A stretch of 64,000 nt of DNA, taken from positions 14,260,001 to 14,324,000 of the forward strand of contig NC_092671.1 in NCBI RefSeq assembly GCF_964355755.1, given 5' to 3'. The notes under the pieces are model-generated. The model was given only the letters and a program-made list of their open reading frames with translations. It was not told where the DNA came from and did not search any database. Both the position numbers and the translations under genes were made by a program. The stretch comes from Antedon mediterranea (taxonomy: Eukaryota; Animalia; Echinodermata). Below, piece after piece: positions 1 to 31,078 of the stretch (its first letter is position 1; each line of letters begins with the position of its first letter).

Positions 1-3000
1 ACACTGTAAACTTAATGTATTTATAGATCACTTCAGACTTAATAGATCAAGCTATATAATTATATTAGTATTTTGATTTAAGGCACTAGAGATGCTGGTA
101 AGTCCAGCAAACATGTTATGATTGCAAGTACTATATGTATTATAACATGTGCCACACAAACTTTTAATTTAATGTCATTCTGAAAAATAGACTTTCTAGT
201 GTCAATCAAGAATTTTTGGATAGTTTACCTGATACGATATTTGTGGCAGCCATTTTCTCAAAATTTAAATTTTTGTTTTATTTTTGTATCGATCTTTACT
301 AAAAGGAATTTGGATTCATACTTGTTATATTTCATAATTTTTGTTCAGAATTTCCCAAAATTGAACATATTTTTTTCTTTTTAAATTGGTGCAGAGCATG
401 TGATAGATCTTATATTATGTTTAGTAGTGAATATTTGTAGCCAAGAAAAGATATTGCCATACATTTTGCTGGTATTATTATTAACATTCGTGAGGAAAAC
501 AAAATGCCGCTGAGGTGTATAAAAGAGGATTAGAGCAGAGTTTATAAATGAGAAGAAAGCACCGGTAAAGCTATTCACATCAGTCGTTGATTATTTCCGT
601 GCTTAGAACTAGGTTTGGGATCAAACATGGTTAATGATCCCAACAATCTCAAGGTAGAGTTTTGGTCGTTCAGACAGTACCACAGGGAGGAACTAGAATT
701 CCCTTGCTCTCGCCCAATAAGAGCTTTATGTTAAATATTCACCTCATACGAAGAAGTAAAAAAAAATCGTATTTATATTGAGTACATACAGTACTGTAAA
801 CCACATTCTGCTATTGCATTATGGGAACAAGGTGGGTCATTTAAGGACATCTGCAGGAATTAAACTAACTTCCTCTCATAAAAATCTTGATTTATTTGTT
901 TTTGTTTTTGAATATTGACTTATTGGAAATTATTTTCATGATCACCAATTTCTAGAGTATGTTTACTATTTGTTTACAGATTGTTTTGAGTGGTCAACGT
1001 TTATTAAACAATAAAAATAACCATTATTTTTTAATGGAATTCTAGCAAAGCCATTTAATATTTGAAATTAAGATCATTTTAAATTATCAAGGAAGTAACA
1101 CATTTTTTAATAAAATAGAAAGCATCTTACTTCATTATAGGCCCATTTCCTGTGATTTCTTATTTTTCTTGTACATGTATGGTTTCAATATTATAATTAC
1201 GGTAAGTGAGCCTGCTGCCCTCACCTCATATCTAGATTTCATTTTGAAAAATATCTGATTTACAGATTTTTCTATCATATTTTTAATTTCCCTTATTTCC
1301 TGTTGAAAAGTGTTATGAATAATAAATAGTTTTATAAGACTCATTGAGATTAAACTTTCCCTTTCGGTATTTACTACCAGTTTTAAAAATACTTATCTAC
1401 AATGTTACAGTTAGATATATTTAAATTTATTCTAATTAAGATACAATTGCAATCCTCCAATAACAATCCCTTAATTACATGTTTATTGGTATATTCACCT
1501 TGAAACTGATATAGACCTACAGTAAGTGCTGAAAAGTCCAATCTAAACACTGAGTGTGTGACTTATGACAACACAATGTGAATCCCCCACACATGTGGAG
1601 CTCATGGCGCTTTGTGTGGCAACGACGACAAATTGGTTGATATTCAGCATCATAGGGCGGTTTTGTTCTGTGTTTGTTGATTAATCATCTGATTATGTAT
1701 GTCGAATGCTTCTGAAAATAAAAAATAAAAAATGAAGTTTTATCATTATTCCTAAACCGGTTGATGATGTTGAACACTGAATGGAAAAAAAATACACACA
1801 AAAATTGAAAATGCTGTTAATCCAGATAGTACTATGAACTTAAAATTAAAATGTTGTTTTATGCTATAGACTTCATCCTACTGAACTTTGATAATTAAAT
1901 GTGTTACAAACTTAAAGGTCAACTGATCTAAAGGTCAAATATAATATGTTGGAGATTGGCCAATGGCTGCCATGATCATGTGTATTGTTGTAATTTGTTG
2001 ACAAGTTTTTCTATAATAAAAATTCCAATTCCACAGAGACTTGTGTTTATTTTATAAATTAACAGTTCTTAAATGAAATGGATTGGTTTTCATTAACTGT
2101 GGTTTAAGCTTCCTTAACGATAGATATATTAATTGTTTCTCATATACACCTTTTTGATTTCCATGATATGACCTGTCACTTTCTGTTTGAATCAAATGGC
2201 TTTAATAATTGTTTAACAGAAGTTCAAGGAACTGCATTATTTATTTACTAGTCTATCTAGCTTTTATTTTGTTTTTGTCTAAATACAGTACTATATTCAA
2301 ATTTCTTTTTTTGGTGATAAAATGATTTGACGAATACATTGGTGTACTGTATTAAAAAACCCACTCACTAAAAAAATGTTAAGCAATTAATTACTTTAAT
2401 ATTTATTTTCAGCATATATTTCTCTGAAGTGTGTTCAATGTCTGTCTAACAATGAAATTATGGTGGACTGATTTATTAATGAATTTATTTATTTTAGTTC
2501 ATTTTGGCACAGAATCTGTGAACCTACTGTAGCTTTCCTAGGAATAAACAGATACAATGCGTTAATCATTACAATTCATATGGTCTTGTTTCTGCTGCAA
2601 AAAATAACTGGTTAACTGTGTGAATTCATTAACCCCAATTTCAAGTTGGCAGCAGAAACAGGAAAAATTAAAAATAGGACAGCCTAAAAATAAAAATATA
2701 AAAATTATATTTAAAATCAACAGTATTTGAATTTATTCGGCAATATGCAGCTGAAACAGACCCTAAATGACCTACACAGCTGGTTTGGCTCGTAAATGTA
2801 TTTGTTGAATAAATCTTGATTGGTAACGGAAGTAACAGTTATATTACGGATATAGACCTAACCTTTTGTTTTTACCTTAAAATGTAAATTTGTTTTTTTT
2901 ATTCATATCAATATTGTAAACGTTATCTGATATATACCATTACCAGTGTTGAATTTTATATTAGTTTGCCAAAAAATTAAGTGTCACTGTATTACAAGTC

Positions 3001-3754
3001 ATTAAAAAAACCCTTGAATGATTAATAGTTGTCAGAAACTTTGTAGATATGAAGAGCACAATTTGCTGCAATGGTAAGGAGTGCATATGATAAGGTAATA
3101 CGTCTTATTTGAATGTGCCCTTGGGCAAGATGTTTTTTGGTCATCCTGTTGATGAAACATTAAGCCTATGTGAACGGAAAAAGATGTAGGGCACTATTAA
3201 AGAAAGAGGAGTGTTTTTCCAATGTAGTCATGCACTACAGTAATGTGACTGCCCTAGGCCAACGGAGAGCTCAATCTTAACAAAAGTAATAGTACATTTT
3301 AGGTAGCCTGCAGTATGGAATTTTTTTTTCTTTCTATATTAATGACCTTAAAATCTGGAAAAATTAGCATAAAGGTAAATGATTATGTAGATTGAATAAT
3401 GATGTTATTGATTTAAACTAATGTTAAGTGTCAGGAAAAGTAGGTTATGTTGAGATATGATCTTCCTTTGTCTGGTGGACGTTGGAAAACATATGGAGGA
3501 ATAAATTGTACGTGATATACATACATGTAGTTAGAGTTGACACCATGGCTATTAAATGGTAACGCTAACAATTTTGGAGGCTAGATCCGTGCTAAAATTT
3601 GACAGTACCCCTGTATCTTGATCAACAAACGAAGATAAAGGTCAGAAATTCGGAAGTTTATTACAAGTTGCTCTTTTGCTTCTCATACTCTTTATTGCAA
3701 TCTTCTTGTTGTTGAAGCAACTTTTAAGCTGTAACCTAATTGCTTATAAATGTG

Positions 3755-3832
3755 AAACTTGATGTTCTAGATGGTGGTATAATGAATCTGTTTAAACTTG
3801 ATGTTCTAGATGGTGGTATAATGAATCTGTTT
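3755..3832. repeat. 39-bp perfect tandem duplication
   Basis: aaacttgatgttctagatggtggtataatgaatctgttt twice; explains the repeated peptides in ORFs 3736-4008 and 3740-3934. Confidence 0.9.
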
Positions 3833-4588
3833 TTGTATGCATTTACACACTTCCTTTTCAAGTCAAATTTGTACATCATGCTATTAATTAGTCTCATTGG
3901 CAGGTGTACTTTCTTGGAATTAGATGTGTTCTGACCCAGGTCATTAGACAAACATTTACTGTATGATGAGTCATTCTCAATAATTCTGATTAATTCACCT
4001 GTCTTCATTAGGCCATATAAAAAACATTATTTATTTGTTAGCATTCTCTTACCAATTTTCAATGAGGAATCTGGTCAAAGTTGATGTGTGATGTTTGCCC
4101 TATTGAATATTGGTCTCCATTGTACATGAGCAGTTTCAGTTATTCAGACCATAGAATAGTGTTATCTGTACAGTAGTTAATTATTCCATCTCCTACAGTA
4201 CTATTTATTTCTGTATAAATATAGAAGTTTTTAAACATTAACCATTCCATTAGTGAAGTTTGTTTAGGTCATGCCATCTCAGTACACAAGTTCACAAGTG
4301 CAGATGTATAAATTAAAAATATTACAACTTGTCAATGGATTATATATCTTCTCCTGCTGCTACAGTAAAATACTATGAAAAAACTAAAGAATTTATTTTA
4401 GAAACAAAATATTTACAATAAACGTACCCGCAAAAATTAATTGTATAAGTATTGTGCAGCAAAAGGTCAAGTAAAAACTTTTACCATATTTAAGCCGACA
4501 CCTCAAATATGAACAATTTTGATTTTAAGTAACTAGTAATTTTAAAATCCACAAATGACCACAAAACTATTTTATATGCTTTTATGTA

Positions 4589-5408
4589 CCGTATATTTCG
4601 GTCTATAAGTCGCACCTGTGTATAAGACGCACCCCCTAACTGAGAGTAAAATATCAGTATTTTTTATATCGTCGATGTATAAGACGCACCTTATATTTCA
4701 TCAAAACAATGTTTTTTTAAATTGTAATCAATATTATTGTAATAATATATTTTGTTATATCTACAACGGCGTCCTTTATTTAGGTTTTTTCTTACCTAGG
4801 CTCGGCCGCGCCCAGCCTCAACAAGTTCTTTCTAACTTGTTATTCATGAGTTTCGCGCCGCAACATCGAGTGCATGACCGTGTGTGTAACACGCACGTGT
4901 GTGGGCTAGCCTCGCTCGATCATTTCGAGAGGGCGCACGTTTTCACGGACAATCGTATTCGATTAGTATCTATGTAGCCGAGAAGTGTGTACGCTAGGTC
5001 CATGCTATAATCACCTGGAGAATATACTATTCGAATACCGTACACCATGTGGCCACCAAAAGAAGGGCTTGCGCTTGGGGTACGGCGATCGTGCGTATAA
5101 CTAACTACTGTATAAATAAATACTATTCCAATCGTACGTAAACGTTTACAAATGAAATTTTATCGGAGCGCCATAATGAACAAATCTTTTCATTATATTT
5201 AGTATAACACCATGCTAAAATGACTTGAAAACTAGGCAGAAGCAGGTTGCCGTTACTCAGGCCTAGCAAACAAGGTGACGATAGCCTAGGCCTAGGCCTA
5301 TGTACAATCTGTGTGGTGAGGCATTTATGTTCGGTGTATAAGACGCACCCTTAATTTAGAGGTCAAATTTGTGTGTCAAAAGTGCGACTTATACACCGAA
5401 ATATACGG
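4589..5408 (+). mobile_element. Tc1/mariner (pogo-like) MITE, copy 1
   Basis: TA TSD; about 27-bp TIRs CCGTATATTTCGGT(C/G)TATAAGTCGCAC...GTGCGACTTATACACCGAAATATACGG; internal repeats of GTATAAGACGCAC; near-identical copies at 8212 and 11035. Confidence 0.9.
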
Positions 5409-7237
5409 TACATCTTGCAGTGTATTATTATATTTGAAAGTGGTTTGATAGAGAAGTCTATCGCCCTCATTTTAATTTATTTTGCATACAAAAAACATAC
5501 CTGTATTATTTGTATTTTCTATGTACAATATTCATGTACATTAAAATCACATTAATGTTAGAATATTGTTTAGTTATTTTTTTTAAACAAGTGTACAGTA
5601 ATATATGTGTATGTTATCTTTGTTTGAAATGAATGTCACTTAATATTATCGAAAGCAAGCTCTCTAACTACACATTCATGTAACCTTTTATTTTATGACA
5701 TGATTTGAATGTAGTTCGATGTCTGTAAACTATTAATTATGGCGTCACGGTATAGTGCATTATACTTTTATTCGCAAATAGAATTACAAAGCATTTCTAA
5801 TTTACTGTTCAGGAAGAGTGACTCGTGATTCATGTCTTCTAAACATGTTAAAATACAATAACAAAATTCAAATTCTTTCGCGACATAGATTTTATTAATT
5901 CATTATACATCAATTTATTTATTTTTTAGTTTTATCTTGTACATAAGAACATTATGTATTTATTTATAACATTGAGCTCTGTAGATATGGAAGTATTTTT
6001 TACTTCCATTCTAATTAAAATTTACTGGCCTTTTTAACAATAGGGTGAAATTATTTGTTGCGAAGTACGCCCTACTGTAGAGTTGATCCCTTAATAGCAA
6101 CCATTCCGCTTTTGTCCCTACTGTACCTTTGTCTGTGATACCCTATTTTGTAGTAGGAAATAAGGCCATACTGTACCTATAAAATAATTCAGAATATTAA
6201 AAAAATACAGGATTTTGAACTTATTTTGATATTTTCAAAGTAATGAGAATCATTAAAATGCTAAAAGGTATTAATTTGAATTAGACTGATTATATCTTTC
6301 TGAACTTTCTGAATTGTTGTAGAGTGGTTGTTTATCAAAAGGAATTTATTTTTTCTTATATCTTACTTTAAATACTGAAAATGATATGTTGGTGTCAGCG
6401 CGTGATGTCATATCGGATGTGCACGTTGATCCGCAGCTTATCGCTGCCTAGTCATCAGGTTTTACAACATTTATCGGTATTGAAATGTCGAATAGCTAGG
6501 AAAGTCATGCAAATAGCTTTTAAACATTCGTCCTACTTCTATCGGGGGAATATTAGCTTGTAGAAGTACGTTTGAGTAAAGAGTGTGTGTGATACGACTT
6601 CAAAAGAGCAGAATATCAAGTATTTCATTGCAAAGGGTTACAGTAAGTTATTCAACTGCAGTAGTATGAAAGAACTAAAATAACAGTTTATGTTTTAAGT
6701 ATACTTTTTATAAAGTTTTTTCTATCTTGTAGGCATTTTATTTTTTATTTATTATTTGTACACATGTTGTTAAACATCAATGACTCTTTCAAAAAAGTTT
6801 TTCAAAACCATCTTTTTGTTTTTGTGATACAAATATACCACATACAACTACTGTAGGCTATGTATATAATTACATTATAAAACTAGATTTAATCCGTCAC
6901 TATGACGAATTATAGGTTATATGCATTGATTTAAATAAAGATGATTGATTGAAGATATATTAATTTATTGATTTTCTCAGAATCTTTAATTATTTATAAT
7001 ATATGATAGGATCTTGCTAACGCAAATACAATAGCCGGTATCATAATTTGATCAAAGATCCTTCTGCGTATAATAATGTCATAAACCACATTTGTTACAT
7101 ATATTAATAAAGACATAGTAAGTTACTTTTTATCTAGATTTCATTATAAATCATGTGTATAATCTAACACTAAGAAATACAATTGAACAAACAATACGGA
7201 TAATAATAAAAAAATCTTATTTCGTTTCGTTTCTCAA

Positions 7238-7298
7238 GATGAGACTCGAACTCGGTACCTTGAATGCTACAGACACGAGCAAAGACCACTGAGCCATA
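7238..7298 (-). repeat. tRNA-derived (SINE head-like) remnant with Pol III A and B boxes
   Basis: Minus strand TGGCTCAGTGG (A box) ... GAGTTCGAGTC (B box); no complete cloverleaf visible. Confidence 0.5.
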
Positions 7299-8211
7299 CA
7301 TAACTGACTAAAAATTATGGAAAGATTCCTCTCTGTATTTACTATGCAGTAACCACTTTGGTGCAGATAGATTATTACATACCGCAATGAATTTTAATGT
7401 TTTACTATGATGACATCTTTAAACATTTTTAAAAATGATGCACTGTCAAACTATATACTTTTAACTTTATTATATGAACTTCTTAAGGAAGAAAGTTAAT
7501 GTTAAATTTGTTATTTTGGCCTAAGAAAATGTTATAATTTGTTTGATTGTCGAAATTAATTTTTTTAAATTTAATATGCCATTAATGATGACTTAATCAA
7601 CTTTTGTTCTCTTAATTTCATAATAAATCATACGTATGATACATACACTTCAAGAAAATGAAATAAAAAATAGGTGTTCCCGAGCATTCTAACGATATAT
7701 ATTAATTTAAAAATTTAGCATATTTTCACCATTTTGTTAACTTACACGTGCGTAGCCTGTCACTTTTGACGTGCTCGTATAACGCTGTTTCGCGTTGAAA
7801 AGTGAATAAAATATGATATTATTAAAGAAAGGTTATACAACAGTAATCGGACAAAAACAGTGCTCATTAACGTTTGACGCGCGGTGCGTGTGCAAAAATC
7901 TGTGCACTTGCCTGAAACGTACTCTAATTTCATCGAAAATAAATTCTGACAATGTTGAATATTTTAAGCGCGCGTACGCATGCCTTATATGCCCTACGCA
8001 CGTAATTGTATTGCCATATGATGAAATATGACCTGAATTTATGAGTACCAAATTTTGTTTAAAAGTGATTCATGCTTGTGAAGATATAATTACAAACGTG
8101 ATTTCGTTAAATCGCGCGTAGACCGCGTAATTTTTGATTGCGCACCGTGAAAACATAACCACATCGATTCCTGGCCATAAGGAATATACAGTACTCTGAA
8201 AAATTGACTTA

Positions 8212-9019
8212 CCGTATATTTCGGTGTATAAGTCGCACTTTTGACACGCAAATTTGACCTCTAAATTAAGGGTGCGTCTTATACACCGAACATAAATGCC
8301 TCACCACACAGATTGTACATAGGCCTAGGCCTAGGCTATCGTCACCTCGTTTGCTAGGCCTAGGCTAGGCCTAGCTAAAGTAACTAACTAACGTAACGGC
8401 AACCTGCTTCTGCCTAGTTTTCAAGGCATTTTAGCATGATGTTATACTAAAAATATGATGAAAAGATTTGTTCATTATGGCAATAAAATTTCATTTGTAA
8501 ACGTTTACGTACGATTGGAATAGTATTTATTTATACAGTAGTTATACGCACGATCGCCGTACCCCCAGCGCAAGCCCTTCTTGGCGGCCACATGGTGTAC
8601 GGTATTCGACTAGGACATTCTCCAGGTGATTATAGCATGGACCTAGCGTATACACTTCTTAGATACATGGATACTAATCGAATACGATTGTCCGTGAAAA
8701 CGTCCGCCCTCTCGAAATGATCGAGCGAGGCTAGCACACATGTGTACGTGTATACACACATGGTCATGCACTCGATGTTGCGGCTGTTGAGGCTGGGCGC
8801 GGCCGAGCCTAGATAAGAAAAAACCTAAATAAAGGACGCCGTTGCAGATATAACAAAATATATTATTACAATAATATTGATTACAATTTAAAAAAACATT
8901 GTTTTGATGAAATATAAGGTGCGTCTTATACACCGACGATATAAAAAATACCGATATTTTACTCTCAGTTAGGGGGTGCGTCTTATACACAGGTGCGACT
9001 TATACACCGAAATATACGG
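8212..9019 (-). mobile_element. pogo-like MITE, copy 2 (inverted relative to copy 1, nested in the Helitron2-like element)
   Basis: Same TIRs and TA TSD; ORF 8643-8990 mirrors ORF 4618-4977. Confidence 0.9.
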
Positions 9020-9582
9020 TAGCTAGATGAAACTGATACCAAGATAATTCACTGACAAAATAGTGCTAAGGAAAGAATAAATAAATAAATAAAGATCCTG
9101 ACAGAATCAAGAGGTTATATGCATTAACCTAATTAATCGTATTAAGAATAATATTTTTATAAATATACTCATTAAGAATATTCAATTTTGATATTAGGAT
9201 TTATAAACCATTTGCATTATTATGTACAGTATGAATTTATATTTCCAGTTCATATCAACAGTATTTTTTATTTCATTTATAACTTTATTTTACTTGGTTT
9301 ATTTGGAGACTAGCGCAAATGAAATCAGCTTCCCAAAAAGAGTTAAAAAGGTCACAGACGGTGAGCTATGAATATTCTTCAATAAATATTTATAGTATTT
9401 TACTAACAAAATGTAATTGTATTAAATCAAATCTTAATTTTGTCGGGTTAGAATATAAAGTACAGGCTAGATGATGGAAATTTGTTCTATATTTCATAAA
9501 ATGTGTTAGAATAGCTTGCAGTATGATTATTTCTCATCACATCCAAGAAGGTCAATCTGTATGGGTTGTACCCAATGCTATT

Positions 9583-9599
9583 TGACCTTACATTGACCT
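9583..9599 (-). promoter_or_regulatory. Perfect DR5 retinoic acid response element (AGGTCA atgta AGGTCA on minus strand) in putative RAR promoter
   Basis: TGACCT-tacat-TGACCT at 9583-9599, followed by ATTGG (inverted CCAAT) at 9610-9614, about 200 bp upstream of ATG GTT G|gtaagt. Confidence 0.7.
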
Positions 9600-9660
9600 T
9601 AGCCCGACTATTGGATGAGTTGCCTGCTGTTCATTAAAGCTCAGCCAGCCATTTTGTTAC

Positions 9661-9677
9661 AGGTCGTAGCTAGTTCA
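9661..9677 (+). promoter_or_regulatory. Near-consensus DR5 (AGGTCG tagct AGTTCA)
   Basis: One mismatch to RGKTCA-n5-RGKTCA, about 60 bp downstream of the perfect DR5. Confidence 0.45.
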
Positions 9678-9793
9678 ACACCGCTCTTTGTGTGTACAGT
9701 TCGGTACTCCTAATACATACTTCAGCTTTTGACAGTTGGGCATCGGATATTTTTATAATATTAATTCACCTGTCGTATCTTCCACCTTTTTCT

Positions 9794-26271
<16,478 letters not shown>

Positions 26272-29884: not shown

Positions 29885-31078
29885 TTATTCAACAGATTTC
29901 TTGCCATAGATTTTAGTCAATGATTTCAAATCAAAATCTGAACATTTTAACACTGTTTGCAATTTGGCCATTAACTCATCTCGATGCTGTGCCTCTTTCT
30001 TGCTTAGAAAATCAATTGATAAACTAAATCGTTTCGTGTTAGACAATTGCTTCAGAATCAGAAATATATCTGTGCAATTCTCTTCTTTAAAATGCATGTT
30101 AAAAAGTTTTAGGATTTCTCCTAGTAGACCAAAACTGATTTCATGTTTAATGGTTGAAAACAATTGATCAGCGTCAAACTGTAAAATATAGTTGTATTTT
30201 TCTTGTTGATTATCGGCAAGTCTTTTCCATTGTTGCATAAATTCATGACCATCTTTTGGTAAATGTCCAGGTATCTATAATTTAAAAAAATGAAAACGGA
30301 CAGTAACACAATTTTTTTTTATTCATTCCATTACATATTTATAACTCAGATTTTTTGCAAAATTATCTTCTTTCGGTTGTCTCATGTGCAAAATGGAAAA
30401 TGGTAACATTAGGCGAACAGTGAACATTCCATAAGGATTATCTCCTCGATCCGCACCTAAAGGGCCTTTCACACCTGTTCCGGCACGGTTCCGGTCCGGC
30501 GAATCGAACGCCAATGTTTCGTTTTCACGACGCTCCACGCGGCCAAGCACCAATTGATATGCGCGTAGCCGCGTAAAAACAAAACATTGACGTTCGATTG
30601 GATTTCCCGTCGCCGGACCGGAACCGTACGGGAACAGGTGTGAAAGACCCTTTATCCATATTTTTACCTGTAATGGTTGATCAGTTTTACTTTCCAGATT
30701 TTGAACATCTTTATCATTTTTATTTACATATGGGTTCCATGGTTGTTGTCTAGGCCGACCGAGTCCTTCTTTGTCACCTTTCTCAAGAGGCTTCAAATGA
30801 GATGCAGCAACAATATCCCTGAGAAAAGATAACTTTTTGTTAACATCAAAAAATAATATGGTATTGTAAAATAATTAATGTATTAATTACTAATTTCAAG
30901 AAAAAATTAGAAAAATGTTTTACACTAACCTAAACTGTTCATATGTCTCAACACGTTGCTCAACGGCTCGGAACTTAGCATCATTTTCCCTCCAATATTT
31001 ATTGTGCGCATCAACAGCCAATGATAGTTCCTTTTCAAGCTTCTGAAAGTCTATAGTATCTTCATTGGGGTCTGCCAT
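29885..31078 (-). CDS. CCDC103: CCDC103 / DNAAF19 axonemal dynein assembly factor; exons 31078-30930, 30818-30668, 30274-29885
   Basis: [22 protein letters not shown]...[23 protein letters not shown]|[15 protein letters not shown]...QPWN (dynein-attachment N-terminal motif); RPAP3_C-like C-terminus [11 protein letters not shown]...[15 protein letters not shown]; GT-AG introns in phase. Confidence 0.93.
30461..30651. mobile_element. Palindromic Harbinger-like MITE in CCDC103 intron
   Basis: AGGGCCTTTCACACCTGTTCC...GGAACAGGTGTGAAAGACCCT; long inverted arms; TAA/TTA flanks. Confidence 0.8.

What the first reader, a model, noticed from the sequence alone, without database searches (positions are those of the whole stretch)
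9341..9806. RARbeta2-like autoregulatory promoter: DR5 cluster in front of a 7-nt first coding segment of RAR
Seen: a perfect DR5 (TGACCT-tacat-TGACCT, 9583-9599), an inverted CCAAT (9610), a second near-perfect DR5 (AGGTCG-tagct-AGTTCA, 9661-9677), a DR2-like AGTTAA-aa-AGGTCA (9341-9354), and a lone AGGTCA (9549). These precede ATG GTT G|gtaagt (9794-9806), whose phase 1 matches the acceptor at 13693 exactly (M-V-V-S-G-Y-L-D-P...). Established: vertebrate RARbeta2 and RARalpha2 isoforms come from DR5-driven, RA-inducible internal promoters spliced onto the common B-region exon. Inference: this invertebrate RAR has the same feedback architecture. My rough estimate is only a few percent chance of one perfect DR5 arising in the 26-kb locus at this base composition.
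Basis: partly seen in the sequence, partly recalled or inferred. Interest (0 to 1): 0.85.

Follow-up and report, generated by a model that had tools for sequence, protein, structure and literature searches.

The report
Feather-star retinoic acid receptor feedback promoter
In a feather star's retinoic acid receptor gene, two receptor-binding-type DNA repeats lie just in front of a tiny alternative starting exon, which likely makes this a second promoter through which the receptor would boost its own production, as in vertebrates, although the start site, binding and induction are untested.

Summary
The motifs lie where stated. The gene is a feather-star RAR. Nine exons beginning ATG-GTT-G|GT at 9794-9800 and splicing to 13693 translate to a protein identical to RefSeq Antedon mediterranea RAR isoform X2 (421 of 421 aa). 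Isoforms X1/X3 start with another exon, not found in the window, so this exon is an internal alternative. One perfect DR5 somewhere in the gene is weak evidence (4-10% by chance). A perfect plus a near-perfect DR5 within 300 bp of this donor is not (about 2e-5). The CCAAT, the DR2-like site and the lone half-site are at chance level. A 178-nt ATG-free, GC-raised stretch fits a 5' UTR. There is no strict TATA or fly-type Inr match, and weak acceptor-like AGs leave open that the exon is spliced internally. No RNA reads or orthologous DNA were reachable, so start site, binding, conservation and RA induction are untested. Best reading (0.45): an RAR/RXR-read internal promoter that works like RARbeta2 P2, but with a 2-residue A region and no shown homology. 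My ten searches found no such element outside chordates.

The parts
9583..9599 (-). Perfect DR5 (AGGTCA atgta AGGTCA); candidate RARE 1; both halves are TAAGGTCA octamers
9661..9677 (+). One-mismatch DR5 (AGGTCG tagct AGTTCA); candidate RARE 2; overlaps an acceptor-like AG ending at 9662
9610..9614 (-). CCAAT core; chance level
9341..9354 (+). DR2-like site containing an AAAGGTCA (NBRE-type; name recalled) octamer; chance level on its own
9549..9554 (+). Lone AGGTCA half-site; one of 5 perfect half-sites in 9341-9740
9616..9793 (+). ATG-free stretch, putative core promoter plus 5' UTR (start site unknown); relaxed TATAAT at 9754
   Evidence: role inferred
9794..9800 (+). Coding end of the alternative 5' exon (Met-Val + 1 nt), donor G|GTAAGT
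13693..13901 (+). Common exon: B region and first zinc finger; phase-1 acceptor, phase-0 donor
16747..26271 (+). Remaining RAR coding exons: 16747-16888, 18054-18208, 21097-21210 (skipped in X3), 24482-24661, 24862-25066, 25461-25619, 26177-26271
14920..14936 (-). Intronic one-mismatch DR5 (AGGTCG tatgg AGTTCA) with the same half-sites as 9661
19256..19272 (+). Second perfect DR5 (AGGTCA aagtg GGGTCA), intronic, next to a cluster of AATAATCG motifs
23379..23453 (.). Intronic perfect DR1 (minus strand) and one-mismatch DR5 at 23437

Best explanation
The stretch 9583-9800 is likely an internal second promoter of the feather-star RAR gene: two DR5 repeats lie 117-211 bases in front of an alternative exon that codes only Met-Val and joins the common exon at 13693 in the annotated isoform, and an RAR/RXR dimer is predicted to bind these repeats, so that retinoic acid would raise the receptor's own transcription. 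Shown: the motifs, their non-random position, and the match of the exon to annotated isoform X2. Inferred: transcription starts between about 9620 and 9790; RAR/RXR occupies the DR5s; ligand turns the dimer into an activator. The product is X1 with 14 N-terminal residues replaced by 2, so the exon would matter for how much receptor is made, not for its properties. Further intronic DR5/DR1 sites may act as helper enhancers. For a receptor that probably binds RA weakly, this loop would sharpen the response, for example at metamorphosis.
For: Joined model identical to RefSeq X2, 421 of 421 aa. The only such ATG-donor in 13.7 kb, with one of 3 G|GTAAGT donors in that stretch. The X1/X3 first coding exon was not found in the window by four motif scans and two peptide scans. 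DR5 pair near the donor about 2e-5. Among DR0-DR9 the only perfect repeats in 64 kb are 2 DR5 and 1 DR1, all in the RAR gene. The 179-nt gap between ATGs is reached by 1.9% of 624 gaps. GC of 9550-9749 is at the 99th percentile of non-exon, non-MITE windows. The DNA-binding domain is nearly identical to human RARbeta by inspection. Annelid RAR/RXR binds DR1, DR2 and DR5 (PMC5821490 passages) and amphioxus RAR/RXR bound 12 of 13 DR5 (PMC5247814 passages). Human RARbeta2 has two proximal DR5 (PMC10218549 passages). Amphioxus RAR is up-regulated by RA (PMC8387019 passages). RA at 0.1-1 uM induces Antedon serrata metamorphosis and an RAR antagonist suppresses it (PMC7023313 passages; PMC8834484).
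Against: No strict TATA, fly-type Inr or GC box in 9560-9800; only a relaxed TATAAT and loose Inr-like matches. Acceptor-like AGs before 9645, 9663, 9670 and 9700 rank at the 94-96th percentile of 1269 AGs. Neither DR5 fits the spacer preference of EMSA-validated amphioxus DR5s, and the second also departs in its first half-site (my comparison). The perfect DR5 could be a micro-duplication. Five near-perfect DR5 in the gene are matched by DR2 (5) and DR31 (5) and exceeded by DR10 (7). Echinoderm RAR/RXR binding to RAREs has not been shown (PMC8834484; PMC13666137 passages), sea urchin RAR binds RA weakly (PMC7827873 passages), and the crinoid pocket differs from vertebrates in helices 3 and 5. 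RA does not up-regulate RAR in Ciona (title of Nagatomo 2003 seen in a reference list). Alternative N-termini also occur in oyster and sea cucumber RARs, so a second 5' exon alone says nothing about RA.
Confidence: 0.45

Rival explanations
1. It is a real internal promoter with real nuclear-receptor sites, but not an RA-driven positive loop. The sites are read by other receptors (TR, COUP-TF, TR2/4, HNF4, NR4A), or RAR/RXR sits there mainly as a repressor.
For: Both halves of the perfect DR5 are TAAGGTCA octamers and 9347 is AAAGGTCA; their link to TR and NR4A is recalled. HNF4alpha acts through RARE2 of human RARbeta2 and amphioxus TR2/4 binds RAREs as a repressor. Mollusc RARs likely act as constitutive repressors. 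The echinoderm receptor has low affinity.
Against: DR5 is the classical RAR/RXR spacing, it occurs twice here in the RAR gene itself, and RA plus antagonist experiments work in Antedon larvae.
Confidence: 0.25
2. The exon ending at 9800 is an internal 5' UTR exon entered at an acceptor before 9663, 9700 or nearby from an upstream non-coding exon. The DR5s would then be an intronic enhancer of the distal promoter.
For: Acceptor-like AGs at the 94-96th percentile; no clear core promoter; three Anneissia transcripts code one protein, which points to varied untranslated exons. The protein record of X2 cannot show its 5' end.
Against: These AGs score 4.6-5.2, below 7 of the 8 true RAR acceptors (6.7-13.0; one scores 0.3) in a small model trained on those 8. 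An ATG-free, GC-raised stretch and a DR5 pair directly upstream suit a first exon.
Confidence: 0.15
3. The DR5s are chance motifs, the perfect one a recent 11-bp micro-duplication, beside an ordinary minor 5' exon or an annotation artefact.
For: Exact 9-bp repeat at lag 11; 3 such loci in 64 kb; 3.4-fold excess of identical hexamers at that lag. 4-10% chance of one perfect DR5 in the gene. CCAAT, DR2-like site and half-site are at chance level. The support for RefSeq X2 was not seen directly.
Against: The second DR5 and the perfect DR5 at 19256 have unlike half-sites, so are not duplications.
Confidence: 0.15

Closest known systems
Vertebrate RARbeta2 P2 promoter (RARalpha2 and RARgamma2 likewise; these two recalled)
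   Same: RAR gene with two kinds of 5' exon (PMC2797528 passages); two DR5 close to the alternative exon (PMC10218549 passages); common exon with phase-1 acceptor and phase-0 donor after the first zinc finger.
   Different: A region of 2 residues against about 53, with no sequence likeness; the two DR5 face opposite ways and are 61 bp apart; no TATA next to the DR5 (that layout in RARbeta2 is recalled); only a modest GC rise (0.44), where RARbeta2 has a CpG island; induction and binding unproven.
Amphioxus RAR as an RA target gene
   Same: Invertebrate deuterostome RAR whose transcript rises with RA and is listed as a direct target (PMC8387019 passages).
   Different: The passages read name no RARE or alternative promoter for amphioxus RAR. 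Here the candidate element is in hand and the induction is missing.
Putative sea urchin RAREs (hox1 DR5 at 3770 bp, cyp26 DR2 at 2503 bp upstream)
   Same: Motif-only echinoderm RAREs, untested in vivo.
   Different: Those are single, distant sites at target genes; this is a pair about 120-210 bp from an annotated start codon in the receptor gene.

Membership tests
RAR (NR1B) gene | C4 zinc-finger DBD plus LBD, closest to RARs | tested here: met
   Pfam zf-C4 and Hormone_recep; best solved match RARbeta, E 5.8e-129; top hits are ambulacrarian RARs.
RARbeta2/alpha2-type autoregulatory promoter | Alternative 5' coding exon downstream of another one, spliced to the common B-region exon | tested here: met
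   Identity to RefSeq X2; X1/X3 exon not found in 1-13692, so placed upstream by inference. Rests on an automated annotation, not on reads seen here.
RARbeta2/alpha2-type autoregulatory promoter | DR5 motif(s) close to that exon, beyond chance | tested here: met
RARbeta2/alpha2-type autoregulatory promoter | Own transcription start site just downstream of the DR5 | tested here: inconclusive
   ATG-free GC-raised stretch, but no strict core motifs and some acceptor-like AGs.
RARbeta2/alpha2-type autoregulatory promoter | RAR/RXR binding and RA induction through the DR5 | not testable with these tools
   Needs EMSA, ChIP, reporter and RA treatment.
RARbeta2/alpha2-type autoregulatory promoter | Conservation of the element in related species | not testable with these tools
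   No echinoderm RAR DNA among 8 metagenome loci or in genome contigs (0 of 47 candidate stretches); no genome held.
Vertebrate isoform-2 RARs (A2 region homologues) | About 50-residue A2 region starting MFDC/MYDC-like | tested here: not met
   The crinoid exon codes Met-Val only.

The most novel reading that the evidence does not exclude
The DR5-driven internal RAR promoter is older than chordates. The crinoid element descends from a deuterostome-ancestral feedback switch that lets a weak RA sensor amplify itself and commit larvae to metamorphosis, and vertebrate RARbeta2/alpha2 promoters are its elaborated descendants.
Probability: 0.2. Interest if true: 0.8.

Novelty: new variant of a known kind. 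Interest (0 to 1): 0.55.

Why it matters
Reviews from 2022 and 2026 state that RARE recognition by echinoderm RAR/RXR is untested and name only two motif-only sites. The 2022 review also asks why RA signalling stays off in competent larvae that already express rar and rxr. A DR5 pair at an annotated alternative start of RAR, in a genus where RA triggers metamorphosis, gives a 250-bp reporter fragment and an isoform-specific qPCR junction to test direct RA targets outside chordates. It would also date RAR autoregulation, which is reported in vertebrates and amphioxus but not in Ciona.

Tried and rejected
RNA evidence: no RNA holder listed among 5 runs. Three of the 5 were laid on 1-17000. The run guessed to be RNA covers introns and repeats in 30 of 30 bins and so behaves as DNA; none of the 15 joints shown (93 more not shown) is the 9800/13693 splice. 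This is no evidence either way. Two contigs span 9123-10478 and 9112-10494 with no differing letters, and depth in 9640-10206 equals that of unique flanks, but they come from one sample that may be the window's source.

Orthologous DNA: no whole genome is held. The metagenome scan gave 8 loci: 5 vertebrate-type RAR exons with upstream DNA, 1 truncated, 2 weak matches not examined. None of the 5 held a recognisable A2 exon or a perfect DR5. The genome-contig scan gave nothing. A search for short crinoid fragments gave 5 weak hits over 20% of the query. Supplements of PMC7023313 and PMC8834484 had no match to the N-terminal peptides. Supplements of the two bioRxiv preprints were not seen and could hold RA-treated RNA-seq tables bearing on rar induction.

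Rejected as support: CCAAT, DR2-like site, lone half-site, and the count of near-perfect DR5s. A VFNN-coding stretch at 9850 resembling the Anneissia alternative N-terminus (MVFNN...) has about 6% chance per 300 bp and was not among the top 6 peptide-scan hits; kept as a weak lead only. Earlier findings: nothing near this place or on these words; the genome-wide list concerned other genes.

Full report
Identity of the gene. The exon at 13693-13901 finds Antedon mediterranea RAR isoforms as its two best hits, E 6e-36. Its cluster holds three A. mediterranea and three Anneissia japonica proteins. The window is therefore from a feather star, Antedon or very close. tblastn placed the exons. A first exon model had wrong boundaries and did not match. 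After correction, nine exons with GT/AG ends, starting at 9794-9800, translate to a protein identical to RefSeq isoform X2 (P0123, 421 aa, beginning MVVSG). The RefSeq model may have been made on the same or a conspecific assembly. That NCBI builds alternative isoforms from transcript alignments is my recollection of the pipeline; I did not see the reads.

Position of the small exon. X1 and X3 begin with 14 other residues (MDMNMN...), a start shared with Anneissia X2 and echoed in sea star, urchin and sea cucumber RARs. Scans did not find that exon in the window, so it most likely lies more than 13.7 kb upstream, and the 9794 exon sits in the intron behind it. 9794 is the only ATG-GTN-G|G(T/C) site before the acceptor. 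Anneissia also has a second N-terminus joined at the same place (MVFNN...), so both crinoids have two 5' coding exons; whether these are the same exon could not be shown. The common exon has phases 1 and 0, as in 5 of 5 vertebrate-type loci with upstream DNA, but its acceptor lies about 20 codons further from the zinc finger and the B regions do not align well.

The motifs and chance. All are present. Half-sites occur about once per 500 bp. In 300 Markov simulations of the 26.3-kb locus, 4% had one perfect DR5, 1 of 300 had two, and 0 of 300 had three perfect DR1/2/5 sites. Control spacings are less kind: 10% and 0.5% for one and two, because half-sites cluster and short duplications are common. 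Near-perfect counts do not single out DR5. What stands out is the pair: a perfect and a one-mismatch DR5 ending 195 and 117 bp before an ATG that annotation fixes independently, with a joint estimate of 1-2e-5. One of 60 other spacings gives such a pair anywhere in the window. The gene also holds the only other perfect DR5 and the only perfect DR1 of the window. CCAAT, the DR2-like site and the lone half-site are ordinary. The 400 bp from 9341 carry 5 half-sites, tied for second behind 6 at 23181.

Promoter or internal exon. For a first exon: no ATG between 9615 and 9794 (1.9% of 624 gaps are as long), and the second most GC-rich non-exon, non-MITE 200-bp window of the locus. Against: no strict TATA, fly-type Inr or GC box, and several AGs at the 94-96th percentile of an acceptor model trained on only 8 sites, though below 7 of those 8. 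Entry at 9663 from the MDMN exon would be in frame but meets a stop at 9671-9673, so an internal exon would have to follow a non-coding exon. The base before the ATG at -3 is T, a weak start context. This point stays open.

Mechanism. The DNA-binding domain is almost that of human RARbeta. DR5 binding by RAR/RXR is shown in an annelid and in amphioxus, so binding of at least the perfect site is a reasonable prediction, although its spacer departs from the amphioxus preference. Activation is less sure: the pocket differs and sea urchin RAR binds RA weakly, yet RA induces and an antagonist suppresses metamorphosis in Antedon serrata. I put an RA-responsive internal promoter at 0.45, other receptors or repression at 0.25, an internal exon with an intronic enhancer at 0.15, and chance at 0.15.

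Comparison and literature. Human RARbeta2 has two proximal DR5 and mouse RARbeta two promoters. Amphioxus RAR rises with RA; Ciona RAR does not, by a title only. Ten searches showed no RARE or alternative promoter in a non-chordate RAR gene; the library lacks most subscription papers. What I saw of each paper: PMC8834484, parts 1-2 of 5 and a supplement search; PMC7023313, passages and a supplement search; passages only for PMC5821490, PMC5247814, PMC10218549, PMC4821253, PMC7827873, PMC8387019, PMC1500811, PMC2797528, PMC6995554, PMC13666137, 10.64898/2026.01.22.700939 and 10.1101/2025.03.09.642214. The passages from PMC4821253, PMC1500811, PMC6995554 and the sea star preprint held nothing on RAR autoregulation; the mollusc preprint suggests all-trans RA may not be the ligand of oyster RAR.

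Verdict. The element may work like RARbeta2 P2 but is not an A2-region homologue, and its defining functions are untested. It is a concrete, cheaply testable candidate: a new variant of a known kind, interest 0.55.

Noticed in passing
window 18586-19462: The second perfect DR5 (19256) abuts a homotypic cluster: 7 of the 9 AATAATCG motifs in 64 kb lie here, several as TAATCGATTA palindromes (homeodomain-dimer or Cut/Onecut type; names recalled), with two TGACGT at 19223 and 19228. Candidate intronic enhancer.
   Followed up: partly
window 14920-14938 and 9659-9677: Two near-perfect DR5s share ACAGGTCGTA-nnn-AGTTCA; this 10-mer occurs only at these two places in 64 kb. A post hoc observation; possibly a preferred local RARE form.
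   Followed up: partly
window 23379-23580: Perfect DR1 plus one-mismatch DR5 in the densest half-site window of the 64 kb (6 in 400 bp).
   Followed up: partly
window 8210-9021; copies 4587-5410 and 11033-11729: MITE-like element of about 810 bp with 34-bp terminal inverted repeats, three copies in this intron, very high read depth; one copy ends 320 bp before the DR2-like site.
   Followed up: partly
window 25381-25438 and 25455-25512: Exact 58-bp duplicate covering the acceptor and start of the eighth coding exon; could give a decoy acceptor.
   Followed up: no
window 21097-21210: Optional 38-codon exon in the LBD region, absent from X3; an insert at this place is seen in other ambulacrarian RARs and not in the vertebrate ones aligned.
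   Followed up: partly
window 9847-9861: VFNN-coding stretch 50 bp into the intron resembles the Anneissia alternative N-terminus; about 6% by chance.
   Followed up: partly
window 29885-30274 (- strand): Neighbouring gene with an RPAP3_C domain; probably CCDC103-like (name recalled). The gene on the + strand from about 32500 looks like DNA2 by eye; Pfam gave no hit for the two pieces tested.
   Followed up: no
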